64,000 nucleotides of DNA from Escherichia coli (GCF_030384885.1 NZ_CP128613.1); one strand, 5' to 3'; positions 3,116 to 53,678 are shown, counted from the first letter of the stretch. Notes: generated by a model from the sequence alone, not told the origin. Program-made: numbers and translations.

Positions 3116-3592
3116 AATAGTAGTACTCCTGACTGAGATATATTTGAATGAATACCTATAGGAAACCTCGATCGGTTAAAATTAGCCCAATAGATAAAAA
3201 GATAACCACACAGGAAGTTATGTGGCTATCAGTCAATTACATTAAATATCATACAAAAATAAAATATCACTGATGTGACAACATCTATTTTCATTGATTT
3301 GATTCAATATAACAATAGATTGCAGCGGATTAACTTCCAGTTGCTTAAAAAATAAAGAAAAAAGTGCAGAAACAGGAGAACTTGAGTGATGTGTAAATTT
3401 ATGAATGATTTTGTTTATTTATTTTGAAGAACATAAACCATTGTATTTTGTATGGATATGGTTAACTTAATGTTTATTATGATAATTAAGAATCACACTT
3501 ACAATAACATCAATTAATAAATAGTTAATCATTTTTGATATATCGTAAGAATAATGTATTTTTTAACACCATCCCTGGTATCTCATCTATCT

Positions 3593-4195
3593 CTATAAAA
3601 CAGCGTGATGCTGTCGTCCTCTGGCTCTATCCCAGATGCCGTAAAAACGCCCTGCATTGCTGGCGGTATACCAGACAGTATGACGAATATTGCGATGCCC
3701 AAGATAATCCTGGATAAGTCGTGTATCTATTCCCATATTCGCCAAAGCAAAACCACACGAATGGCGTAACATATGCGGATGAATCTCCAGTGATAACCCA
3801 GCATTACCACCAGAAGTCGAGATAATATGGTAAAACTGTTGCCGAGAAAGCGGGTTCCCCTTACGTGATAAAAATACCCACTCGCTCTCAGCATGCGGAT
3901 AAGAAGTACGTATACTCAACCAGTTTTTTAAAGCCTGAACTTCTTTGTTCAATAGCGGGTGCGTTGTTGAAAAGCCTTTTTTTAATCGATGGATATAGAT
4001 ACACTTTGCCTTAAGATCAATATCCGAAATCCTCAATCGGCAAATTTCACTCGCCCGGAAACCATGAATAAAACAAAGCAAAGTCAGACAATAATTACGT
4101 GCTGCATGAGGCCCGGTATTTGCTGCTTTAAGGAGTGACTCGATTTCACTATGGGTCAGGAAGTTCCTTTTTTTGTTATCAGCCTTATTCTTCAT
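3593..4195 (-). CDS. fimB: Fim switch recombinase FimB (tyrosine recombinase)
   Basis: 200 aa, MKNKADNKKRNFLTHSEIESLL..., paralog of FimE. Confidence 0.95.
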   Translation of the reverse strand: MKNKADNKKRNFLTHSEIESLLKAANTGPHAARNYCLTLLCFIHGFRASEICRLRISDIDLKAKCIYIHRLKKGFSTTHPLLNKEVQALKNWLSIRTSYPHAESEWVFLSRKGNPLSRQQFYHIISTSGGNAGLSLEIHPHMLRHSCGFALANMGIDTRLIQDYLGHRNIRHTVWYTASNAGRFYGIWDRARGRQHHAVL

Positions 4196-43880: not shown

Positions 43881-46577
43881 TTACTGCCAGCCGTAACGAC
43901 GGCTATAGAACCCTTTCACCAACTGGGTTAACGTCATATACCCTGCCAGAATCGCAACCAGCCACGGGAAATAGCTTAACGGCAGCGCCTGCAGTTGCAG
44001 ATAACTGGCCAACGGCGAAAACGGCAATGCGATCCCGACTATCATCACAATCACGGTCATGATCATTAACGGCCACGATGCACAGCTCTGAATAAACGGT
44101 ACACGACGGGTACGGATCATATGCACAATCAGCGTTTGCGACAGTAATCCCACCACAAACCAGCCCGACTGGAACAGCGTTTGCGTTTCCGGCGTGTTGG
44201 CATGGAATACCCACCACATCAGGCAAAACGTCAGAATATCGAAGATCGAACTGATCGGTCCGAAGAAGATCATAAAGCGCCCCAAATCCGCCGGATTCCA
44301 ACGCTGAGGCTTTTGAACTTGCTCGTCGTCGACGTTATCAAACGGGATCGCCACCTGTGACACATCGTACAGCAGGTTCTGGATCAGTAAGTGTAAAGGC
44401 AGCATCGGCAGGAAGGGCAAGAAAGCACTCGCCACCAGCACGCTGAACACATTACCGAAGTTAGAACTCGCCGTCATTTTGATGTATTTCAGCATGTTGG
44501 CGAAAGTGCGACGTCCCTCAATAACCCCCTCCTCCAGCACCATCAGGCTTTTTTCCAGCAGGATGATATCAGCCGCTTCACGGGCAATATCTACCGCGCC
44601 GTCCACAGAAATGCCGATATCCGCAGCGCGTAAGGCGGGAGCATCATTAATACCATCGCCCATAAAGCCAACCACATGCCCTTCGCGCTTTAGCAAGGTC
44701 ACGATGCGTTCTTTATGCATCGGCGTCAGGCGAGCAAACAGCGTGGTGCGCTGTGCAAGATTTGCCAGTTCGTCGTCAGATAGCGTTTCAATATCACTAC
44801 CAATGACCACCTCTCCCGCGTCCAGTCCCACTTCATGGCACACTTTCGCCGCCACTAACTCGCTGTCGCCAGTAAGGATTTTCACGGTAATGCCACTCGC
44901 TTTTAATGCCTTCAGTGCCGGAGCTGTTGTCTCTTTCGGCGGATCAAGGAAAGCAATATATCCTTCGAGGATCAGGTCGGATTCATCCGCCCGCTGGTAA
45001 TCCCCTTCACGTGCTGGCAGGTATTTCGTCGCCACCGCAACCACGCGCAGCCCCTGACGATTCAGCGTATCAGTAACCCGCTTAATCTTACGCAGTATGA
45101 TGTCATCAAGCGGCACAATCTCACCATTGTGACGCACCTGCGAACACACATTGAGGATTTCCTGCAATGCGCCTTTGCAAACCAGTTGATGATGTTCGGT
45201 ATTCTCTGCCACTACCACCGACATCCGGCGACGCTCGAAATCAAACGGAATCTCATCAATTTTTTGCCAACGACTGGCCAGCGAGCGCGCTGACTCTTCA
45301 TCCGTACCTTCGAGCACCGCTGTATCAAGCAGGTTTTTAAGTCCGGTCTGATAATGACTGTTCAACCACGCGCTATGCAGCACCCGTTCGCTGGTTTTAC
45401 CGGAGATATCGGTATGATTCTCCAGCACAATTTTATCCTGCGTCAGGGTGCCGGTTTTATCAGTGCACAGAATATCCATAGCGCCAAAGTTCTGAATGGC
45501 ATCCAGATGTTTGACGATCACTTTCTGTTTCGACAGCTTTACGGCACCACGCGCCAGCGTCGAAGTGACAATCATCGGCAACATTTCTGGCGTTAAGCCT
45601 ACCGCGACCGAAAGTGCGAACAGTGCCGCTTCCCACCAGTCACCTTTGGTGTAACCGTTGATCAGCAACACCACCGGAGCCATCACCAGCATAAAGCGAA
45701 TCAGCAGCATACTGACGCGGCTAATCCCTTGCTGAAAGGCATTCGGCTCGCTTTCCTGCTCACTAACACGCCCCGCCAGTTGACCAAACCAGGTGTTGGC
45801 TCCTGTAGCAATCACCATTGCTTGTGCCGTGCCGCTCACCACGGTGGTACCCATAAAACACAGGGTGTCGCACTCCAGCGGATTGCTGTGCTCCGGCTGG
45901 CGAGTGGTAGCAGCTTTTTCCACGGGCAGAGACTCACCGGTTAACGACGCCTGAGCGACAAACAGATCCCGCGCCTGCAAGATACGTAAATCTGCCGGGA
46001 TCATATCCCCCGCCGCCAGTTTTATAATATCGCCGGGCACTAGTTGGTCTATCGGAATTTCCAGCCAGCCATTTTCACCTTTATCGTTAATTACGCGCAG
46101 TACCGTCGCGGTATTACTGACCATCGCTTTCAGGGCATCTGCCGCTTTGGTGGAACGAGCTTCCTGAATAAAGTTCAGCAACGTAGAAATAGCGACCATT
46201 AGCGCGATAACACCTGCGGCAAATAAATCTTCCGTGGCGTAAGAAATAGCACCGAGAATGGTGAGCAAAATATTAAAGGGGTTGCGATAGCAGACCCATA
46301 AATGTACCCACCACGGCGACGGTTGTTGCGCGGGTAATTTATTTTCACCATGTTGTTCGCGGGCAGATTCCACTTCCGCCTGATTTAACCCTTCCGGATG
46401 GGTATTGAACGTTTTCCATAATTCCTGTTCTGGCATCACCGCCATTTTCAGGCAATGCGCACTTAAGGACGGCGGGACCGCCGTATTCACTGTCTGCTGC
46501 GCGCCAGGCAATGGATCGCGATGAACCAGACGGGAAGGTAAATGGCGAATGAGCCGGGTAAAAATTTCTTTAAACAT
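43881..46577 (-). CDS. mgtA: Mg2+-importing P-type ATPase MgtA
   Basis: 898 aa, P-type ATPase motifs DKTGTLT and GDGINDAPAL. Confidence 0.97.
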   Translation of the reverse strand: MFKEIFTRLIRHLPSRLVHRDPLPGAQQTVNTAVPPSLSAHCLKMAVMPEQELWKTFNTHPEGLNQAEVESAREQHGENKLPAQQPSPWWVHLWVCYRNPFNILLTILGAISYATEDLFAAGVIALMVAISTLLNFIQEARSTKAADALKAMVSNTATVLRVINDKGENGWLEIPIDQLVPGDIIKLAAGDMIPADLRILQARDLFVAQASLTGESLPVEKAATTRQPEHSNPLECDTLCFMGTTVVSGTAQAMVIATGANTWFGQLAGRVSEQESEPNAFQQGISRVSMLLIRFMLVMAPVVLLINGYTKGDWWEAALFALSVAVGLTPEMLPMIVTSTLARGAVKLSKQKVIVKHLDAIQNFGAMDILCTDKTGTLTQDKIVLENHTDISGKTSERVLHSAWLNSHYQTGLKNLLDTAVLEGTDEESARSLASRWQKIDEIPFDFERRRMSVVVAENTEHHQLVCKGALQEILNVCSQVRHNGEIVPLDDIILRKIKRVTDTLNRQGLRVVAVATKYLPAREGDYQRADESDLILEGYIAFLDPPKETTAPALKALKASGITVKILTGDSELVAAKVCHEVGLDAGEVVIGSDIETLSDDELANLAQRTTLFARLTPMHKERIVTLLKREGHVVGFMGDGINDAPALRAADIGISVDGAVDIAREAADIILLEKSLMVLEEGVIEGRRTFANMLKYIKMTASSNFGNVFSVLVASAFLPFLPMLPLHLLIQNLLYDVSQVAIPFDNVDDEQVQKPQRWNPADLGRFMIFFGPISSIFDILTFCLMWWVFHANTPETQTLFQSGWFVVGLLSQTLIVHMIRTRRVPFIQSCASWPLMIMTVIVMIVGIALPFSPLASYLQLQALPLSYFPWLVAILAGYMTLTQLVKGFYSRRYGWQ

Positions 46578-46850
46578 AAGGAGTCCCTCCGCACTGACTG
46601 AAACAGTGCAGAAATGTCTTCAGGCGTGGCGAAGCCTTACCTGAAGGTAATAAAGCTGAGCTGGGACGTTAAAACGTCACGGCCTTACGCATCCGGTAAC
46701 GCCGTGAAAAGACGGGCTTACCGGAAAAGTTTTAATCTCCGTCGAGGGAGAGGCGTGGGATCAGGTTCCATATAACCTCCGATAAGTGAAAAAAGCGCCG
46801 CAAATAATAAGGAGAATCCAATAATATTCGTGGCATTTATGGCGATATAA
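46578..46850 (-). promoter_or_regulatory. mgtA 5' leader (Mg2+/proline-sensing regulatory leader containing mgtL)
   Basis: Long leader upstream of mgtA containing the proline-rich mgtL ORF; established for mgtA. Confidence 0.7.
46718..46771 (-). CDS. mgtL: mgtA leader peptide MgtL
   Basis: 17-aa [20 protein letters not shown] with GGAGG RBS, inside the mgtA leader. Confidence 0.85.
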
Positions 46851-46953
46851 TACCTACTGGCAACTAAACCAACGATAAACCAGACTTTACCCATTGCTGA
46901 ATGCACGGGTAAAGTTAGGCTCAAATAATGAAACGCAATTACGGGACAACAGG

Positions 46954-47901
46954 ATGCAAAATCGGCTGACCATCAAAGACATCGCGCGCTTAAGCGGCGT
47001 GGGGAAATCTACGGTTTCCCGAGTGCTGAATAACGAAAGCGGCGTGAGTCAGCGCACGCGCGAGCGCGTGGAAGCAGTGATGAATCAGCATGGATTTTCC
47101 CCTTCCCGCTCCGCGCGCGCTATGCGTGGGCAAAGCGATAAAGTGGTCGCCATCATTGTTACCCGTCTGGATTCGTTGTCAGAAAATCTCGCCGTCCAAA
47201 CCATGCTGCCAGCGTTCTATGAACAAGGTTACGACCCGATCATGATGGAAAGTCAGTTTTCTCCGCAATTAGTTGCCGAACATTTGGGGGTGCTGAAACG
47301 GCGTAATATCGACGGCGTAGTGCTGTTCGGTTTTACCGGCATAACCGAAGACATGTTAGCCCACTGGCAGTCATCGCTGGTTCTGCTGGCGCGTGACGCA
47401 AAAGGCTTTGCTTCGGTCTGTTATGACGACGAAGGGGCAATCAAGATCCTGATGCAACGGCTGTATGACCAGGGGCATCGTAATATCAGTTATCTCGGCG
47501 TACCGCACAGTGACGTGACGACCGGTAAGCGACGTCACGAAGCCTACCTGGCGTACTGCAAAGCGCATAAACTTCATCCCGTCGCCGCCCTGCCAGGCCT
47601 TGCGATGAAGCAAGGCTATGAGAATGTCGCAAAAGTGATTACCCCTGAAACCACCGCGTTACTGTGCGCAACCGACACGCTGGCACTTGGCGCAAGTAAA
47701 TACTTGCAAGAGCAACGCATCGACACCTTGCAACTGGCGAGCGTCGGTAATACACCGTTAATGAAATTCCTCCATCCGGAGATCGTCACCGTTGACCCAG
47801 GTTACGCCGAAGCCGGACGCCAGGCGGCCAGCCAGTTAATTGCGCAGGTAACCGGGCGCAGCGAACCGCAACAAATCATCATCCCTGCCACCCTATCCTG
47901 A
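46954..47901 (+). CDS. treR: Trehalose operon repressor TreR (LacI family)
   Basis: 315 aa from MQNRLTIKDIARLSGVGKSTVSRVLNNE (LacI-type HTH). Confidence 0.95.
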   Translation: MQNRLTIKDIARLSGVGKSTVSRVLNNESGVSQRTRERVEAVMNQHGFSPSRSARAMRGQSDKVVAIIVTRLDSLSENLAVQTMLPAFYEQGYDPIMMESQFSPQLVAEHLGVLKRRNIDGVVLFGFTGITEDMLAHWQSSLVLLARDAKGFASVCYDDEGAIKILMQRLYDQGHRNISYLGVPHSDVTTGKRRHEAYLAYCKAHKLHPVAALPGLAMKQGYENVAKVITPETTALLCATDTLALGASKYLQEQRIDTLQLASVGNTPLMKFLHPEIVTVDPGYAEAGRQAASQLIAQVTGRSEPQQIIIPATLS

Positions 47902-47940
47902 TCGTTTCCTGAACGATAAATTGTGATCTTCGCTGCGTTT

Positions 47941-47954
47941 CGGGAACGTTCCCG
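47941..47954. promoter_or_regulatory. Candidate TreR operator (LacI-family type palindrome) upstream of treB
   Basis: Perfect 14-bp palindrome CGGGAACGTTCCCG, 66 bp upstream of treB; a second inverted repeat ATCGTT...AACGAT at 47901-47917. Confidence 0.5.
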
Positions 47955-48019
47955 TTTTTAAATTTTTCCGCGCACTATATTCTGCAGCCAACCAAAAATG
48001 TCATCTGCCATGGGGCTTT

Positions 48020-49441
48020 ATGATGAGCAAAATAAACCAAACGGATATCAATCGGTTGATTGAACTGGTCGGCGGTCGCGGCAATATTGCGACGGTGAGC
48101 CACTGTATTACTCGCCTGCGCTTTGTCCTCAACCAACCGGCCAATGCCAGACCGAAAGAGATTGAGCAACTCCCCATGGTGAAAGGCTGTTTCACCAATG
48201 CCGGGCAATTTCAGGTGGTAATTGGCACCAACGTGGGTGATTACTATCAAGCGCTGATAGCGACGACCGGACAGGCGCAGGTTGATAAAGAGCAGGTGAA
48301 AAAAGCTGCCCGGCAGAATATGAAATGGCATGAGCAGTTGATCTCTCATTTCGCGGAGATCTTCTTCCCGCTGCTGCCCGCGTTGATTAGTGGTGGTTTG
48401 ATCCTCGGTTTTCGCAATGTGATCGGCGATTTGCCCATGAGCAACGGTCAAACGCTGGCGCAAATGTACCCTTCCCTGCAAACGATCTACGATTTTCTAT
48501 GGTTGATCGGTGAAGCGATCTTCTTCTACCTGCCGGTCGGAATTTGCTGGTCAGCGGTGAAAAAAATGGGCGGCACGCCGATCCTCGGTATCGTGCTTGG
48601 CGTGACGCTGGTTTCCCCACAGTTGATGAACGCTTATCTGCTCGGGCAGCAGCTACCGGAAGTATGGAACTTTGGCATGTTCAGCATCGCCAAAGTGGGC
48701 TATCAGGCACAGGTTATTCCGGCACTGTTAGCCGGGCTGGCGCTGGGCGTGATAGAAACTCGCCTTAAGCGTATCGTGCCGGATTATCTCTATCTGGTGG
48801 TGGTGCCGGTCTGTTCGCTGATCCTCACGGTGTTCCTCGCCCATGCGCTGATTGGTCCGTTTGGTCGCATGATTGGCGATGGCGTTGCCTTTGCGGTGCG
48901 TCACCTGATGACCGGCAGCTTTGCCCCCATTGGTGCGGCATTGTTTGGCTTCCTTTACGCACCGCTGGTGATCACCGGCGTACACCAGACCACGCTTGCT
49001 ATAGATTTGCAGATGATTCAAAGCATGGGTGGCACGCCAGTGTGGCCGCTTATTGCGCTGTCGAATATCGCTCAGGGCTCCGCCGTGATAGGCATTATCA
49101 TTTCCAGCCGCAAGAGCAATGAACGCGAGATCTCCGTGCCTGCCGCTATCTCCGCCTGGCTTGGGGTCACTGAGCCTGCAATGTACGGCATCAACCTGAA
49201 ATATCGCTTCCCGATGCTGTGCGCGATGATTGGTTCTGGTCTGGCAGGATTACTATGCGGTCTGAACGGCGTTATGGCGAATGGCATCGGCGTAGGCGGC
49301 CTGCCGGGAATTCTCTCTATTCAACCGAGCTACTGGCAAGTGTTTGCGCTGGCAATGGCTATCGCCATCATCATCCCGATTGTACTCACCTCGTTTATCT
49401 ACCAGCGGAAATACCGCCTGGGTACGCTGGACATTGTTTAA
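48020..49441 (+). CDS. treB: PTS trehalose-specific EIIBC component TreB
   Basis: 473 aa, EIIB cysteine motif (ATVSHCITRLR) and EIIC membrane domain. Confidence 0.97.
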   Translation: MMSKINQTDINRLIELVGGRGNIATVSHCITRLRFVLNQPANARPKEIEQLPMVKGCFTNAGQFQVVIGTNVGDYYQALIATTGQAQVDKEQVKKAARQNMKWHEQLISHFAEIFFPLLPALISGGLILGFRNVIGDLPMSNGQTLAQMYPSLQTIYDFLWLIGEAIFFYLPVGICWSAVKKMGGTPILGIVLGVTLVSPQLMNAYLLGQQLPEVWNFGMFSIAKVGYQAQVIPALLAGLALGVIETRLKRIVPDYLYLVVVPVCSLILTVFLAHALIGPFGRMIGDGVAFAVRHLMTGSFAPIGAALFGFLYAPLVITGVHQTTLAIDLQMIQSMGGTPVWPLIALSNIAQGSAVIGIIISSRKSNEREISVPAAISAWLGVTEPAMYGINLKYRFPMLCAMIGSGLAGLLCGLNGVMANGIGVGGLPGILSIQPSYWQVFALAMAIAIIIPIVLTSFIYQRKYRLGTLDIV

Positions 49442-49449
49442 TTTTCTTC

Positions 49450-49467
49450 GGGGCGCAATTGCGCCCC
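49450..49467. repeat. Perfect 18-bp palindrome between treB and treC (intercistronic stem-loop)
   Basis: GGGGCGCAATTGCGCCCC; no T-run follows. Confidence 0.8.
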
Positions 49468-49490
49468 CTCGTATTTGCAGGAATAACGTA

Positions 49491-51146
49491 ATGACGAATC
49501 TTCCCCACTGGTGGCAAAACGGCGTTATCTACCAGATTTATCCCAAGAGTTTTCAGGACACCACGGGCAGCGGTACCGGCGATTTACGTGGCGTTATCCA
49601 ACGCCTGGACTATCTGCATCAACTGGGCGTCGATGCTATCTGGCTAACCCCCTTTTATGTCTCTCCCCAGGTCGATAACGGATACGACGTAGCGAACTAT
49701 ACGGCGATAGATCCCACTTACGGTACGCTGGACGATTTTGACGAAATGGTGACGCAGGCGAAATCACGCGGCATTCGTATCATTCTCGATATGGTGTTTA
49801 ATCATACTTCTACCCAACATGCCTGGTTTCGCGAGGCGCTGAGCAAAGAAAGCCCTTACCGTCAGTTTTATATCTGGCGCGATGGTGAACCAGAAACGCC
49901 ACCGAATAACTGGCGTTCAAAATTTGGCGGTAGTGCGTGGCGCTGGCATGCGGAAAGCGAACAGTACTATTTGCATCTCTTTGCACCAGAACAGGCGGAT
50001 CTCAACTGGGAGAATTCGGCGGTACGCGCCGAGCTGAAAAAAGTCTGTGAGTTCTGGGCCGATCGCGGGGTCGACGGGTTGCGCCTGGATGTGGTGAATC
50101 TGATCTCCAAAGACCCGCGTTTCCCTGAAGACCTGGATGGCGACGGACGTCGCTTCTACACCGACGGGCCACGAGCACACGAGTTTTTGCACGAGATGAA
50201 CCGCGATGTGTTTACGCCTCGCGGGTTAATGACCGTGGGTGAAATGTCCTCCACTAGCCTTGAGCATTGCCAGCGATACGCGGCTCTGACAGGCAGTGAA
50301 TTGTCGATGACCTTTAATTTTCATCACCTGAAGGTCGATTATCCCGGTGGTGAAAAATGGACGCTGGCTAAACCTGACTTTGTGGCGTTGAAAGCATTGT
50401 TCCGCCACTGGCAACAAGGAATGCACAACGTGGCATGGAATGCCTTGTTCTGGTGTAACCACGATCAGCCGCGCATTGTTTCTCGTTTTGGTGATGAAGG
50501 GGACTACCGCGAACCTGCGGCAAAAATGCTGGCGATGGTGCTGCATGGCATGCAGGGAACGCCATATATCTATCAGGGCGAAGAGATTGGCATGACTAAT
50601 CCACATTTCACGCGCATTACTGACTATCGCGACGTGGAGAGCCTCAATATGTTTGCCGAACTGCGCAACGATGGGCGTGACGCCGACGAGTTATTGGCAA
50701 TCCTCGCCAGTAAATCCCGTGACAATAGTCGCACGCCAATGCAATGGAGCAACGGCGATAATGCCGGGTTTACAACGGGTGAACCGTGGATTGGCCTGGG
50801 CGATAACTATCAAGAAATCAACGTAGAAGCTGCGCTGGCCGATGAGTCCTCGGTGTTTTACACCTACCAAAAGTTAATCGCACTGCGTAAGCAAGAAGCC
50901 GTCCTGACATGGGGCAATTACCAGGATCTGCTGCCAGACAGCCCTGTATTGTGGTGCTATCGCCGTGAATGGAAGGGGCAAACCTTGCTGGTCATTGCCA
51001 ACCTTAGCCGTGAGATCCAACCCTGGCAGCCAGGGCAAATGCGCGGAAACTGGCAGCTTGTGATGCATAACTACGAAGAAGCCTCAGCACAACCCTGTGC
51101 CATGACTTTACGGCCTTTTGAGGCCGTCTGGTGGTTACAGAAGTAA
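49491..51146 (+). CDS. treC: Trehalose-6-phosphate hydrolase TreC (GH13)
   Basis: 551 aa from MTNLPHWWQNGVIYQIYPKSF; ORF-track upstream extension trimmed. Confidence 0.97.
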   Translation: MTNLPHWWQNGVIYQIYPKSFQDTTGSGTGDLRGVIQRLDYLHQLGVDAIWLTPFYVSPQVDNGYDVANYTAIDPTYGTLDDFDEMVTQAKSRGIRIILDMVFNHTSTQHAWFREALSKESPYRQFYIWRDGEPETPPNNWRSKFGGSAWRWHAESEQYYLHLFAPEQADLNWENSAVRAELKKVCEFWADRGVDGLRLDVVNLISKDPRFPEDLDGDGRRFYTDGPRAHEFLHEMNRDVFTPRGLMTVGEMSSTSLEHCQRYAALTGSELSMTFNFHHLKVDYPGGEKWTLAKPDFVALKALFRHWQQGMHNVAWNALFWCNHDQPRIVSRFGDEGDYREPAAKMLAMVLHGMQGTPYIYQGEEIGMTNPHFTRITDYRDVESLNMFAELRNDGRDADELLAILASKSRDNSRTPMQWSNGDNAGFTTGEPWIGLGDNYQEINVEAALADESSVFYTYQKLIALRKQEAVLTWGNYQDLLPDSPVLWCYRREWKGQTLLVIANLSREIQPWQPGQMRGNWQLVMHNYEEASAQPCAMTLRPFEAVWWLQK

Positions 51147-51158
51147 GTATCCGCTAAG

Positions 51159-51188
51159 CCCCGGTAATACTGGTCATTCCGGGGTTTT
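51159..51188 (+). terminator. Rho-independent terminator after treC
   Basis: Stem CCCCGG...CCGGGG followed by TTTT. Confidence 0.7.
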
Positions 51189-51290
51189 GCCTTTCAGTAT
51201 GTTGTTTTTGTTGATTTTATAATCAAAAAATTCATTAAAAAATTTACATAACGCTGTAGCGCCCGTCATCCGTACGCTCTGCTTTTTACT

Positions 51291-51335
51291 TTGAGCTACA
51301 TCAAAAAAAGTTCAAACATCCTTGATGCAAAGCAC
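51291..51335. promoter_or_regulatory. Tandem FNR-like sites in the nrdDG promoter
   Basis: TTGAGCTACATCAA (51291-51304) and weaker TTGATGCAAAGCAC (51322-51335), centres 31 bp apart. Confidence 0.6.
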
Positions 51336-51378
51336 TATATATAGACTTTAAAATGCGCCCCGACCCAATATGTTGTAT
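51332..51378. promoter_or_regulatory. Two NrdR-box-like palindromes overlapping the nrdD promoter
   Basis: gcaCTATATATAGact (51332-51347) and accCAATATGTTGtat (51363-51378), 31 bp start to start. Confidence 0.5.
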
Positions 51379-51427
51379 TAATCGACTATAATTGCTACTA
51401 CAGCTCCCCACGAAAAAGGTGCGGCGT

Positions 51428-51513
51428 TGTGGATAAGCGGATGGCGATTGCGGAAAGCACCGGAAAACGAAACGAAAAAACCGGAAAACGCCTTTCCCAA
51501 TTTCTGTGGATAA
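51428..51513 (+). promoter_or_regulatory. Two perfect DnaA-box 9-mers in the nrdD 5' leader
   Basis: TGTGGATAA (reverse complement of TTATCCACA) at 51428-51436 and 51505-51513, same orientation, 77 bp apart, 27-112 bp upstream of nrdD ATG. Confidence 0.6.
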
Positions 51514-51539
51514 CCTGTTCTTAAAAATATGGAGCGATC

Positions 51540-53678
51540 ATGACACCGCATGTGATGAAACGAGACGGCTGCAAAGTGCCGTTTAAATCAGAGCGCATCA
51601 AAGAAGCGATTCTGCGTGCAGCTAAAGCAGCGGAAGTCGATGATGCAGATTATTGCGCCACTGTTGCCGCGGTTGTCAGCGAGCAGATGCAGGGCCGCAG
51701 CCAGGTGGATATCAACGAGATCCAGACCGCCGTTGAAAACCAGCTGATGTCGGGTCCATACAAACAACTGGCTCGTGCTTACATCGAGTACCGTCACGAT
51801 CGCGATATTGAACGTGAAAAACGCGGTCGCCTGAATCAGGAGATCCGTGGTCTGGTCGAGCAGACCAACGCCTCGTTGCTCAACGAAAACGCCAACAAAG
51901 ACAGCAAGGTGATTCCAACCCAGCGCGACCTGCTGGCCGGGATTGTGGCTAAACACTATGCACGTCAGCACCTGCTGCCGCGTGACGTGGTGCAGGCGCA
52001 TGAGCGTGGCGATATTCACTATCACGATCTCGATTACTCGCCGTTCTTCCCGATGTTCAACTGCATGTTGATCGACCTGAAAGGTATGCTGACCCAGGGC
52101 TTTAAGATGGGTAACGCCGAGATTGAACCACCGAAGTCGATCTCTACGGCAACCGCGGTAACAGCGCAGATTATTGCTCAGGTCGCCAGTCATATTTATG
52201 GCGGCACCACCATTAACCGTATCGATGAAGTGCTGGCACCGTTTGTCACCGCCAGCTACAACAAACACCGCAAGACCGCAGAAGAGTGGAACATCCCGGA
52301 CGCCGAAGGTTACGCTAACTCTCGTACCATCAAAGAGTGCTACGATGCCTTCCAGTCGCTGGAGTACGAAGTAAACACCCTGCACACCGCCAACGGTCAA
52401 ACACCGTTTGTGACCTTTGGTTTTGGTCTGGGCACCAGCTGGGAGTCTCGCCTGATTCAGGAGTCTATCCTGCGTAACCGTATCGCGGGCCTCGGTAAAA
52501 ACCGTAAAACTGCGGTGTTCCCGAAACTGGTGTTTGCGATTCGCGATGGCCTGAACCATAAAAAAGGCGATCCGAACTACGACATCAAACAGCTGGCGCT
52601 GGAGTGCGCAAGCAAGCGCATGTATCCAGATATCCTGAACTACGATCAGGTAGTGAAAGTCACCGGTTCGTTTAAAACCCCGATGGGCTGCCGCAGCTTC
52701 CTCGGCGTGTGGGAAAATGAAAACGGCGAACAGATCCACGATGGTCGTAACAACCTCGGCGTGATCAGCCTGAACCTGCCGCGCATTGCGCTGGAAGCGA
52801 AAGGCGATGAGGCCACCTTCTGGAAGCTGCTGGATGAACGTCTGGTGCTGGCACGTAAGGCGCTGATGACCCGTATCGCTCGTCTCGAAGGCGTTAAAGC
52901 GCGCGTGGCCCCGATCCTCTATATGGAAGGTGCTTGTGGCGTTCGTCTGAATGCTGACGACGACGTTTCTGAAATCTTCAAAAACGGTCGTGCGTCTATT
53001 TCGCTGGGTTACATCGGCATCCACGAAACCATTAACGCGCTGTTTGGCGGCGAGCATGTGTATGACAACGAGCAGCTGCGCGCGAAAGGTATCGCCATTG
53101 TTGAACGTCTGCGTCAGGCGGTGGATCAGTGGAAAGAAGAAACGGGTTACGGTTTTAGCCTTTACAGCACGCCAAGTGAAAACCTGTGCGACCGCTTCTG
53201 CCGTCTCGATACCGCGGAGTTTGGCGTGGTGCCGGGCGTGACTGATAAAGGTTACTACACCAACAGTTTCCACCTCGATGTGGAGAAGAAGGTGAACCCG
53301 TACGACAAGATCGACTTTGAAGCGCCTTACCCGCCGCTGGCGAACGGTGGCTTCATTTGCTACGGCGAATATCCAAACATTCAGCACAACCTGAAGGCGC
53401 TGGAAGATGTCTGGGATTACAGCTATCAGCATGTACCGTATTACGGCACCAATACGCCGATTGATGAGTGTTACGAGTGTGGTTTTACCGGTGAGTTTGA
53501 GTGCACCAGTAAAGGCTTCACCTGCCCGAAATGTGGTAACCATGACGCCTCCCGTGTGTCGGTGACTCGCCGCGTGTGCGGATATTTAGGTAGCCCGGAT
53601 GCGCGTCCGTTTAACGCTGGTAAGCAGGAAGAAGTTAAGCGCCGCGTTAAACATTTGGGAAATGGGCAGATCGGTTAA
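51540..53678 (+). CDS. nrdD: Anaerobic ribonucleoside-triphosphate reductase NrdD
   Basis: 712 aa, C-terminal glycyl-radical region and zinc-ribbon cysteines (CYECGF...CPKCG). Confidence 0.97.
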   Translation: MTPHVMKRDGCKVPFKSERIKEAILRAAKAAEVDDADYCATVAAVVSEQMQGRSQVDINEIQTAVENQLMSGPYKQLARAYIEYRHDRDIEREKRGRLNQEIRGLVEQTNASLLNENANKDSKVIPTQRDLLAGIVAKHYARQHLLPRDVVQAHERGDIHYHDLDYSPFFPMFNCMLIDLKGMLTQGFKMGNAEIEPPKSISTATAVTAQIIAQVASHIYGGTTINRIDEVLAPFVTASYNKHRKTAEEWNIPDAEGYANSRTIKECYDAFQSLEYEVNTLHTANGQTPFVTFGFGLGTSWESRLIQESILRNRIAGLGKNRKTAVFPKLVFAIRDGLNHKKGDPNYDIKQLALECASKRMYPDILNYDQVVKVTGSFKTPMGCRSFLGVWENENGEQIHDGRNNLGVISLNLPRIALEAKGDEATFWKLLDERLVLARKALMTRIARLEGVKARVAPILYMEGACGVRLNADDDVSEIFKNGRASISLGYIGIHETINALFGGEHVYDNEQLRAKGIAIVERLRQAVDQWKEETGYGFSLYSTPSENLCDRFCRLDTAEFGVVPGVTDKGYYTNSFHLDVEKKVNPYDKIDFEAPYPPLANGGFICYGEYPNIQHNLKALEDVWDYSYQHVPYYGTNTPIDECYECGFTGEFECTSKGFTCPKCGNHDASRVSVTRRVCGYLGSPDARPFNAGKQEEVKRRVKHLGNGQIG

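What the first reader, a model, noticed from the sequence alone, without database searches (positions are those of the whole stretch)
49450..49467. Perfect 18-bp GC-rich palindrome between treB and treC
GGGGCGCAATTGCGCCCC sits 9 bp after the treB stop and 24 bp before the treC start, with no T-run. It would form a very stable intercistronic hairpin that could set differential mRNA stability or processing within the operon.
Basis: seen in the sequence. Interest (0 to 1): 0.25.

Follow-up and report, generated by a model that had tools for sequence, protein, structure and literature searches.

The report
Conserved RNA hairpin ending treB transcripts
The palindrome is a real RNA hairpin between the trehalose transporter gene (treB) and the trehalose-6-phosphate hydrolase gene (treC), conserved across enterobacteria, and published E. 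coli K-12 data place an abundant transcript end 5 bases after it, so it is an ordinary operon-internal end-forming and stabilising element.

Summary
GGGGCGCAATTGCGCCCC is at window 49450-49467, 8 nt after the treB stop and 23 nt before the treC ATG. An 18-bp perfect palindrome is not rare by chance: about 23% of simulated 64-kb windows contain one.

The element is nevertheless real. The 7-bp all-GC stem with a 4-nt loop is kept in about 75 of 84 species-level Enterobacteriaceae loci.
- 98.5% of alignment cells are paired, and 4 of 7 pairs show compensatory changes.
- There are six G.U wobbles and no A.C pairs, which points to the + strand RNA.
- Stem identity to the window is 93.5%, against 46% at neighbouring four-fold degenerate sites.
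- The loop varies, so the perfect palindrome is an Escherichia/Kluyvera accident.

Published Term-seq of E. coli MG1655 (Adams 2021) maps a treB 3' end exactly 5 nt after the stem. It has 425,606 reads, against 64,109 at the operon-terminal treC end.

The tail after the stem is U-rich and varies between genera. It is a perfect U-tract in some, and degenerate in Escherichia, Citrobacter and Salmonella.

Best reading: a terminator-like hairpin that creates and protects the 3' end of a treB-only transcript. In E. coli the ends probably come from processing (GC^AUU fits the RNase E motif) and/or leaky termination. It is a new member of a known kind, of modest interest.

The parts
48020..49441 (+). 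treB (PTS trehalose EIIBC, 473 aa), the upstream cistron; stop TAA at 49439-49441
   Evidence: ORF list. RefSeq annotation of near-identical E. coli records. 99% identity to E. coli TreB clusters.
49442..49449 (+). 8-nt pyrimidine spacer UUUUCUUC between the treB stop and the hairpin. It is not A-rich, so the element does not look like a bidirectional terminator.
   Evidence: The stop-to-stem distance varies from 5 to 15 nt among genera.
49450..49456 (+). 5' arm of the stem, GGGGCGC
   Evidence: Covariation.
49457..49460 (+). tetraloop AAUU. It varies between genera (AGUU, CGUU, GUUU, GAAA, GCUG, UUCG and others), so the palindrome centre is not conserved.
   Evidence: Loop identity to the window is 56%.
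49461..49467 (+). 3' arm of the stem, GCGCCCC
49468..49478 (+). U-rich tail CUCGUAUUUGC. Position 49472 corresponds to the 3'-terminal nucleotide mapped in E. coli K-12, 5 nt after the stem. GU^AUU here (GC^AUU in K-12) fits the RNase E core motif RN^WUU.
   Evidence: Term-seq entry. Coordinate check on the K-12 sequence. Motif as stated in PMC5222698. Tail composition across genera.
49479..49482 (+). treC Shine-Dalgarno AGGA, 8 nt before the ATG. The (C)AGGA block is nearly invariant in the alignment.
49491..51146 (+). treC (trehalose-6-phosphate hydrolase, 551 aa), the downstream cistron
   Evidence: The ORF frame of 49344..51146 with the ATG at 49491. RefSeq annotation.

Best explanation
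The element acts as RNA in the treBC mRNA. It is a very stable 7-bp G-C stem with a tetraloop that marks and protects the 3' end of a treB-only transcript. As a result the transporter message outlasts or outnumbers the treC part of the operon message.

Shown:
- The hairpin is under purifying selection as a base-paired structure on the sense strand.
- In E. coli K-12 an abundant steady-state 3' end lies 5 nt after it.

Inferred for E. coli:
- Most ends arise from full-length or longer transcripts. RNase E would cleave in the single-stranded tail (GC^AUU in K-12, GU^AUU in the window), or 3'-to-5' exonucleases would trim back after any downstream break.
- The hairpin then blocks PNPase and RNase II.
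- Weak intrinsic termination at the degenerate U-rich tail adds to this.
- In genera where the tail is a true U-tract, the same hairpin works as a leaky intrinsic terminator.
- Read-through or uncleaved molecules supply treC.
- The net effect is more treB than treC mRNA.
For: Structure:
- 98.5% of 343 cells are paired. 4 of 7 pairs carry compensatory double changes, in 11 cells. 0 of 500 shuffles reach any measure, and slid controls give only 47-77% paired.
- RNAalifold independently predicts only this helix.
- There are six G.U/U.G cells and no A.C cells, so pairing is preserved only on the + strand.

Selection: stem positions are 93.5% identical to the window, against 45.7% at four-fold degenerate sites in the last 60 treB codons and 56% in the loop.

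In vivo end: MG1655 Term-seq, LB OD 0.4, gives a 3' end at 4464728(-) with 425,606 reads, 6.6 times the treC terminator end (64,109) on the same strand. treB has five internal ends above threshold and treC has none. The position is verified as the 5th nt after the stem.

Processing route:
- The cut site matches RN^WUU.
- treBC is among the operons whose transcripts fall when RNase E is overproduced.
- The E. coli tail fails a terminator score, at -18 to -24.
- The hairpin is conserved whether or not a U-tract follows.
- Stable stem-loops without U-tracts are documented as exonuclease-protective 3' ends in E. coli (PMC6061677).
Against: - The mapped end, 5 nt after the stem, lies inside the 4-8 nt range seen for bona fide intrinsic terminators in the same dataset. 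Its position therefore does not separate termination from processing.
- The RNase E motif is short, about 1/64 per position by chance, and no RNase E-dependent site at this junction was found in the supplements I could search.
- No half-life or Northern data were found, so '6.6-fold' refers to 3'-end reads, not mRNA or protein ratios.
- The hairpin is dispensable in nature. It is degraded in Salmonella (C.C mismatch plus G.U, -7 versus -15 kcal/mol).
- It is absent in Atlantibacter and Edwardsiella.
- It is removed by a 16-bp deletion in 12-13 of 5421 E. coli genomes.
- The Term-seq evidence is from K-12, not the window strain.
Confidence: 0.55

Rival explanations
1. The element is primarily a leaky intrinsic (Rho-independent) terminator, an intra-operon attenuator. 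RNA polymerase itself stops 5-9 nt after the hairpin in a fixed fraction of rounds, and only read-through transcripts carry treC. On this view processing plays no major part.
For: - The hairpin has typical terminator geometry: 7 G-C pairs and a 4-nt loop, -15 kcal/mol.
- The tail is U-rich in most genera. Mean U content is 55% in the first 9 nt, and U dominates at +1, +2, +7 and +8.
- 17 of 60 distinct variants score as terminators. Several are textbook cases, such as CCCC-UUUUUUUGAC, CCCCC-UUUUUUUUC and CCCC-UUCUUUUUUG.
- The lenient scan flags the window copy.
- The K-12 3' end, 5 nt from the stem, lies within the 4-8 nt seen at accepted terminators in the same table.
- No Rho-termination region is listed for treB or treC in that study (no occurrences in file 2).
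Against: - In Escherichia and Citrobacter the proximal U residues are replaced (CUCGC..., AUCGU...) and the score is -18 to -31. K-12 has only 3 U in the first 9 nt.
- There is no upstream A-tract.
- The stem is conserved much more strictly than the U-tract, which suggests the shared function needs only the hairpin.
- A strong terminator ahead of an essential pathway enzyme would need an explanation.
Confidence: 0.3
2. The hairpin mainly serves treC translation or stability. Sitting a fixed 19-25 nt before the treC ATG, it would insulate the treC ribosome-binding site from upstream structure. After a cut upstream of it, it could alternatively act as a protective 5' stem-loop for a treC message.
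For: - The stem-to-ATG distance is tightly constrained (19-25 nt, mode 22), while the stop-to-stem distance ranges from 5 to 15 nt.
- When the intergenic region expands (Buttiauxella L067/L070, Mangrovibacter L090), a GC hairpin plus U-rich tail remains next to the treC ribosome-binding site.
Against: - The mapped end is on the 3' side of the hairpin, so the hairpin stays with treB.
- No conserved pairing with the Shine-Dalgarno or AUG region exists.
- The constant spacing may only reflect conservation of the tail and Shine-Dalgarno sequence.
- Only 3-4 expansion events are available.
Confidence: 0.06
3. The palindrome is a DNA site, either an operator for a dimeric regulator or a cruciform or restriction-type site, and the RNA hairpin is a by-product.
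For: It is a perfect 18-bp inverted repeat in E. coli, and the two 7-bp arms are nearly invariant in sequence in many genera.
Against: - The centre of the palindrome is not conserved, with more than 20 different loops.
- The arms change by compensatory substitutions: GGGGCCG/CGGCCCC, GGGGCCA/UGGCCCC, GGGCGCGG/CCGCGCCC, GGGGAGCGU/GCGCUCCCC and GGGGUGC/GCACCCC.
- Strand-asymmetric G.U pairs are tolerated but A.C pairs are not.
- It lies inside a transcription unit, 1.4 kb from the promoter.
- The TreR-type palindrome is elsewhere, at 47941-47954.
Confidence: 0.02
4. It is a copy of a dispersed repeat (REP/BIME or another mobile palindromic unit), or a chance palindrome without function.
For: 18-bp perfect palindromes occur by chance in about 23% of simulated windows. 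REP-like insertions do land in this intergenic region in Buttiauxella.
Against: - It is unique in the 64-kb window even with a free loop and one mismatch.
- There is no Rfam match at E <= 10.
- It is orthologously placed and under strong purifying selection across genera.
- It is associated with a transcript end in vivo.
Confidence: 0.02

Closest known systems
Protective 3' stem-loops without U-tracts at steady-state mRNA ends in E. coli (Dar & Sorek 2018, PMC6061677)
   Same: A stable stem-loop of terminator-like size and energy that lacks a proper U-tract and an upstream A-tract. A precise steady-state 3' end lies a few nt downstream. The proposed role is a barrier to PNPase and RNase II.
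   Different: Those ends were defined for Rho-dependent transcription units, mostly at operon ends. This one lies 23 nt before a translated downstream cistron of the same operon. No Rho-termination region is recorded there. In other genera the same hairpin carries a real U-tract.
Intercistronic stabilising hairpins / selective RNA processing and stabilisation (malE-malF REP hairpins in E. coli and puf operon hairpins, both from memory; SRPS operons of Clostridium, PMC4423207, seen)
   Same: A stem-loop at the 3' side of an upstream cistron in a polycistronic mRNA. The upstream segment accumulates over the downstream one, and stoichiometry is set after transcription initiation.
   Different: It is not a REP element: it is unique rather than dispersed. 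No half-life data exist for treB versus treC. It is a single short 7-bp hairpin rather than tandem REPs.
Leaky intra-operon intrinsic terminators (attenuators), e.g. the rplL-rpoB attenuator and the rpsU-dnaG terminator in E. coli (from memory)
   Same: A GC-rich hairpin plus a U-rich tail between two cistrons, giving a promoter-proximal short transcript and a read-through long transcript. Orthologues in Kosakonia, Klebsiella michiganensis, Trabulsiella and several Enterobacter-like species are canonical.
   Different: In the window and in E. coli generally the U-tract is degenerate and fails a terminator score. Termination has not been demonstrated.
RNase E cleavage sites, core motif RN^WUU (Chao et al. 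2017, PMC5222698)
   Same: The K-12 3' end falls at G-C^A-U-U, in a single-stranded AU-rich stretch next to a stable helix.
   Different: This is a motif match only. RNase E dependence at this site is untested, and the motif is weak or absent in some genera (for example Raoultella, UUCGUUGUAG).

Membership tests
Canonical intrinsic (Rho-independent) terminator | GC-rich stem of about 5-14 bp with a 3-8 nt loop | tested here: met
   7 G-C pairs, 4-nt loop, -15 kcal/mol.
Canonical intrinsic (Rho-independent) terminator | U-tract of about 7-9 nt directly after the stem, especially proximal U residues | tested here: not met
   The window tail is CUCGUAUUUG and the K-12 tail is CUCGCAUUCG. The d'Aubenton-Carafa-type scores are -18.7 and -24.4. 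Only a lenient 5-of-8 T rule is passed by the window copy. The feature is met in orthologues of other genera: 17 of 60 variants score above 0.
Canonical intrinsic (Rho-independent) terminator | Transcript 3' ends a few nt after the stem in vivo | tested here: met
   The MG1655 Term-seq end is 5 nt after the stem. Accepted terminators in the same table end 4-8 nt after their stems. This is K-12, not the window strain.
Canonical intrinsic (Rho-independent) terminator | Factor-independent release by purified RNA polymerase | not testable with these tools
   This needs in vitro transcription.
Exonuclease-protective 3' stem-loop / intercistronic mRNA stabiliser | Stable stem-loop conserved as a structure on the sense strand | tested here: met
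   98.5% of cells are paired, 4 of 7 pairs are compensatory, 0 of 500 shuffles reach the observed values, and G.U pairs occur but A.C pairs do not. Stem identity is 93.5% against 46% at four-fold sites.
Exonuclease-protective 3' stem-loop / intercistronic mRNA stabiliser | Precise abundant steady-state 3' end immediately downstream | tested here: met
   425,606 reads at 4464728(-), the highest non-tRNA value on that strand in the part of the table read.
Exonuclease-protective 3' stem-loop / intercistronic mRNA stabiliser | Upstream cistron mRNA more abundant or longer-lived than the downstream one | tested here: inconclusive
   The evidence is indirect only. The 3'-end reads are 6.6:1 (treB end versus treC end), and treB has five internal ends against none for treC. 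No half-life or coverage data were found.
Exonuclease-protective 3' stem-loop / intercistronic mRNA stabiliser | The end shifts or is lost in pnp/rnb/rne mutants or when the stem is disrupted | not testable with these tools
   Natural 16-bp deletion strains exist for the experiment.
RNase E cleavage site | RN^WUU core in a single-stranded region | tested here: met
   GC^AUU in K-12 and GU^AUU in the window, downstream of the helix. The motif is short, so this is weak evidence.
RNase E cleavage site | The cleavage product depends on RNase E activity | not tested
   The Salmonella TIER-seq supplements held have no treB or treC entry. The only finding is that treBC transcripts drop on RNase E overproduction.
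REP/BIME dispersed palindromic repeats | Many similar copies per genome, roughly 35-nt imperfect palindrome consensus | tested here: not met
   There is a single copy in the 64-kb window, even with a free loop and one mismatch. A whole-genome count was not possible.
Operator for a dimeric DNA-binding regulator | Half-site sequence, not pairing, conserved; strand-symmetric | tested here: not met
   There are compensatory arm changes, a variable centre and strand-asymmetric wobble pairs.
Any curated Rfam family | Covariance-model match | tested here: not met
   No hit at 49400-49500 at E <= 10. The only real hit in 46500-52000 is the Mg riboswitch upstream of mgtA.

The most novel reading that the evidence does not exclude
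The hairpin could be a translation-sensing attenuator. It starts only 5-15 nt (8 nt here) after the treB stop codon, so a ribosome finishing treB sits against or over the 5' arm. When translation keeps pace with RNA polymerase, hairpin formation is delayed and transcription and the message continue into treC. When treB translation or membrane insertion lags, the hairpin forms and the transcript ends or is trimmed there. The treC:treB ratio would then report the translational state of the transporter gene. Lineages would tune the set-point through the U-tract, which runs from none in Escherichia and Salmonella to perfect in Kosakonia and Klebsiella michiganensis.
Probability: 0.12. Interest if true: 0.5.

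Novelty: new member of a known kind. Interest (0 to 1): 0.3.

Why it matters
It shows that treBC, usually drawn as a simple two-gene operon with one transcript, has a conserved internal RNA element. In K-12 that element coincides with the most abundant 3' end of the operon.

This gives a concrete route to unequal transporter and hydrolase expression. It also offers a graded natural series: the same hairpin with tails running from no U-tract to a perfect one, plus natural deletion and decay alleles. That series could be used to separate how much termination and how much exonuclease protection contribute to operon stoichiometry.

It does not change any concept. Elements of this kind are well documented.

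Tried and rejected
- **Palindrome statistics.** Perfect 18-mers are not rare, so significance had to come from comparative data.
- **Rfam.** A scan of 46500-52000 at E <= 10 gave nothing at the site.
- **Dispersed repeat.** No other copy exists in the window.
- **Second helix.** A helix pairing the tail with the treC Shine-Dalgarno/AUG region appears in the single-sequence fold but is not conserved. I dropped it.
- **DNA operator reading.** Rejected because of compensatory changes and wobble asymmetry.
- **Original treB paper.** The Klein et al. 1995 paper on treB (J Bacteriol; tried by PubMed id and a remembered PMC id) and the SEnd-seq paper (tried under a PMC id recalled from memory) are not held.
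- **Supplements with no treB/treC entry.** This applies to TERMITe, Salmonella TIER-seq and SMRT-Cappable-seq.
- **Supplements not held as text.** This applies to Dar & Sorek 2018, the 3'-UTR valve paper, the nanopore paper and the 2024 RNase E paper.
- **Text searches.** Searches for treB with terminator, Term-seq, RNase E, UTR/Hfq or stem-loop found no paper that discusses this hairpin.
- **Taxonomic reach.** Taxa beyond Enterobacteriaceae plus Edwardsiella were not reached. The genome scan kept only the best 80 of 311 relatives, and the protein search listed only hits of at least 84% identity.

Full report
**Observation**

The 18-mer GGGGCGCAATTGCGCCCC is at window 49450-49467 on the + strand. 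The treB ORF (48020-49441, 473 aa) ends with TAA at 49439-49441, and treC (551 aa) starts with ATG at 49491. RefSeq annotation of near-identical E. coli records names the two genes treB and treC. The neighbourhood is mgtA with its Mg riboswitch, then treR, treB, treC and nrdD.

As RNA the sequence folds into a 7-bp all-G-C stem with an AAUU loop. The energy is -15 kcal/mol and the fold takes 97% of the ensemble.

Perfect palindromy is not by itself significant. 46 of 200 Markov simulations of the window contain a perfect palindrome of 18 bp or more. This particular sequence, or GGGGCGC-N4-GCGCCCC with one mismatch allowed, is unique in the window and expected about 0.02-0.04 times.

The statement 'no T-run' is half right. 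The tail CTCGTATTTG has 5 T in 8 bases and passes a lenient terminator scan. It fails a d'Aubenton-Carafa-type score at -18.7 (approximate, because modern energy parameters were used).

**Within E. coli**

The junction is present in 5421 of 5426 complete genomes. The hairpin is identical in the strains sampled. The tail is polymorphic:
- most strains: CTCGCATTTG
- K-12: CTCGCATTCG
- the window: CTCGTATTTG

Twelve to thirteen genomes from varied hosts carry a 16-bp deletion between two TTGC direct repeats. It removes the 3' arm and part of the tail. treB and treC are still annotated as intact in these genomes. The remnant does not fold.

**Across genera**

A scan of species-representative genomes with TreB returned 80 loci at 86-97% protein identity. 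I placed the treB stop and the treC start in each by tblastn. I added Salmonella, Cronobacter, Edwardsiella and Mangrovibacter through exact-protein look-ups.

In 77 loci with a short intergenic region there is a strong hairpin (dG <= -8 kcal/mol). It is nearly always a 7-bp stem with a 4-nt loop. It lies 5-15 nt after the treB stop and 19-25 nt (mode 22) before the treC ATG.

The arms are GGGGCGC/GCGCCCC in most genera. The loop takes more than 20 forms, including AGTT, CGTT, GTTT, GAAA, GCTG and TTCG. The perfect palindrome (loop AATT) is therefore limited to E. coli and some Kluyvera.

More distant genera keep the helix with different sequences:

| Lineage | Stem arms |
|---|---|
| Buttiauxella | GGGGCCG/CGGCCCC and GGGGCCA/TGGCCCC |
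| Franconibacter (labelled 'Enterobacter pulveris') | GGGCGCGG/CCGCGCCC |
| L083 | GGGCGGG/CCCGCCC |
| Citrobacter gillenii | GGGGTGC/GCACCCC |
| Cronobacter | GGGGAGCGU-UUCG-GCGCUCCCC |

**Covariation and selection**

I ran the pair counts on a MAFFT alignment of 49 distinct intergenic regions (A2).
- 98.5% of cells form standard pairs.
- 4 of 7 pairs show changes on both sides, in 11 cells.
- No shuffle out of 500 reaches any of the five measures.
- Sliding the partner by 1-3 columns drops pairing to 47-77%.
- RNAalifold, run independently, predicts only this helix and no conserved pairing with the treC ribosome-binding site.
- Six cells are G.U or U.G and none is A.C. This is the signature of selection on the + strand RNA rather than on duplex DNA or the antisense strand.

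The compensatory events come from perhaps four to six lineages, so the count of independent events is small.

Selection is clear from identity to the window:

| Positions | Identity to the window |
|---|---|
| Stem | 93.5% |
| Four-fold degenerate sites, last 60 treB codons | 45.7% |
| Loop | 56% |

**Losses**

The element is not indispensable.
- Salmonella enterica has GGGGCGC-AGTT-GCCTCCC, with a C.C mismatch and a G.U pair. Its energy is about -7 kcal/mol.
- Atlantibacter has a 39-nt intergenic region without the hairpin.
- Edwardsiella hoshinae has no comparable GC hairpin.
- Two Buttiauxella loci carry a REP-like insertion of about 80 nt between the stop codon and a different GC hairpin (GAGGCC/GGCCTC).
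- Mangrovibacter has a 221-nt region with similar hairpins at both ends and a canonical terminator in the middle.

**The tail**

The 9 nt after the stem average 55% U. U is strongly preferred at +1, +2, +7 and +8, giving a consensus of UUCGCAUUU.

By the terminator score, 17 of 60 distinct variants are positive and about a dozen are borderline. Several are textbook terminators:
- CCCC-UUUUUUUGAC
- CCCCC-UUUUUUUUC
- CCCC-UUCUUUUUUG
- CGCCCCCC-UUUUUUGU

The Escherichia and Citrobacter variants score -18 to -31, because the proximal U residues are replaced. The conserved core is therefore the hairpin. The U-tract is lineage-specific.

**Experimental evidence already published**

Supplementary file 1 of Adams et al. 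2021 (eLife, PMC7815308) reports Term-seq of E. coli MG1655. The LB OD 0.4 sheet lists a 3' end at 4464728 on the - strand with 425,606 reads. It is classed as the primary 3' end of treB, within the sequence ...TTTTCTTCGGGGCGCAATTGCGCCCCCTCGC|ATTCGCAGGA.

Using the K-12 record (treC 4463054-4464709, treB 4464759-4466180, both on the - strand) and its sequence, that coordinate is the fifth nucleotide after the stem: CUCGC^AUUC.

On the same strand and sheet:
- treC's own terminator end (4463010) has 64,109 reads.
- treB has five internal ends of 24-49 thousand reads each.
- treC has no internal ends.

Read counts in that table differ systematically between strands, so I compared only same-strand values. 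treB appears only in the LB 0.4 sheet (locates the sheets). From my own knowledge, yeast extract supplies trehalose early in LB growth, which would induce the operon at that stage.

Neither treB nor treC appears in that study's list of Rho-termination regions.

Accepted intrinsic terminators in the same table (treC, yjiY, fecA, dapD, ytfP) have mapped ends 4-8 nt after their stems. The 5-nt position therefore does not discriminate between termination and processing.

The site G-C^A-U-U matches the RNase E core motif RN^WUU, with its critical U at +2 (PMC5222698). The window has G-U^A-U-U. treBC is listed among operons whose transcripts decline when RNase E is overproduced (PMC11788932).

Dar & Sorek 2018 (PMC6061677) showed that in E. 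coli stable stem-loops lacking U-tracts mark precise steady-state 3' ends and protect them from PNPase and RNase II.

**Interpretation**

Two things are shown. The hairpin is a selected RNA structure on the treBC message, and in K-12 the most abundant 3' end of the operon lies 5 nt after it.

One thing is inferred: it raises treB-only mRNA relative to treC-containing mRNA.

How the end is made is unresolved. I favour end formation by RNase E cleavage or exonucleolytic trimming with hairpin protection for Escherichia, with some leaky termination (confidence about 0.55). My reasons are that the hairpin is conserved regardless of the U-tract, the E. coli tail is a poor terminator tail, and the end coincides with an RNase E motif.

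The main rival is a leaky intrinsic terminator as the principal source of ends (0.3). It is well supported in genera with true U-tracts and cannot be excluded for E. coli.

A role centred on treC translation or 5' protection (0.06) rests only on the constant spacing to the ATG.

DNA-operator, dispersed-repeat and chance explanations are effectively excluded by covariation, wobble asymmetry, uniqueness and orthologous conservation.

**Comparison with what is known, and novelty**

The element works like the protective stem-loops of Dar & Sorek and like classical intercistronic stabilisers and attenuators. Examples are malE-malF, the puf operon, SRPS operons and the rplL-rpoB attenuator; apart from SRPS, these are cited from memory.

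It is not a REP element and matches no Rfam family. For the window sequence it fails the U-tract criterion of a canonical intrinsic terminator.

I found no paper in the searchable library that discusses this hairpin. Its 3' end sits unremarked in a supplementary table.

I rate it a new member of a known kind, with modest interest (0.3). Its main value is as a natural allelic series for separating termination from 3'-end protection. That series consists of the same stem with U-tracts from absent to perfect, plus decay and deletion alleles.

Noticed in passing
window 47941-47954 (+), between the treR stop (47901) and the treB start (48020): A 14-bp perfect palindrome CGGGAACGTTCCCG followed by TTTTTAAATT. 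It is one of only eight perfect palindromes of at least 14 bp in the window and is flagged as terminator-like. It could be the treR terminator, a LacI-type (TreR) operator, or both.
   Followed up: no
window 46671-46786 (-): A full-length match to the Mg2+ riboswitch (RF01056, 122 bits, E = 3.5e-25) in the mgtA leader. The Salmonella locus L086 has an mgtL peptide gene called at the equivalent place.
   Followed up: no
window 49380-49560; 49472 and 49476: This 181-bp stretch is only 96.7-97.2% identical to most E. coli genomes, and only 3 of 5421 are at least 99% identical (best: strain 2013C-4282). The window therefore comes from an uncommon treBC allele or lineage. Its tail has T at 49472 where other E. 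coli have C, and T at 49476 where K-12 has C.
   Followed up: partly
L004 (E. coli SL124) 362-396; also H13-H24: A 16-bp deletion between two TTGC direct repeats removes the 3' arm of the hairpin in 12-13 of 5421 complete E. coli genomes. They come from human, pig, chicken and swan hosts and fall on two slightly different sequence backgrounds. treB and treC stay annotated as intact. These strains are natural knock-outs for the experiment.
   Followed up: partly
L086/L087 (Salmonella enterica) 3420-3468: The orthologous hairpin is decayed: GGGGCGC-AGTT-GCCTCCC has one C.C mismatch and one G.U pair, about -7 kcal/mol. Its tail AACGCACUUG has few U residues. The Escherichia-Citrobacter-Salmonella group seems to have weakened the element step by step.
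   Followed up: partly
L067 and L070 (Buttiauxella) intergenic 129-130 nt; L074 98 nt; L090 (Mangrovibacter) 3420-3640: The intergenic region is expanded by REP-like or other palindromic insertions. In L067 and L070 the insertion lies between the treB stop and a GC hairpin next to treC. Mangrovibacter has similar hairpins (ACGGGCGGCTTACCCGCCCGT and ACGGGCAGCTTACCCGTCCGT) at both ends, plus a canonical terminator between them.
   Followed up: no
L016 (Trabulsiella odontotermitis strain 01): No TreC N-terminal match was found downstream of treB within the 2.5-kb flank, unlike all the other loci.
   Followed up: no
Adams et al. 2021, Supplementary file 1, LB 0.4 sheet: Term-seq average read counts differ greatly by strand. 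The smallest listed values are about 23,469 on the - strand and about 800 on the + strand. Counts should therefore be compared only within a strand.
   Followed up: no
Alignment A2, loop columns 30-33: In Escherichia, Citrobacter, Enterobacter and Kosakonia the tetraloop is almost always NNTT, with the last two bases conserved. Klebsiella and Raoultella use GCTG, GATG, GAAA or CCAG. The reason is unknown.
   Followed up: no
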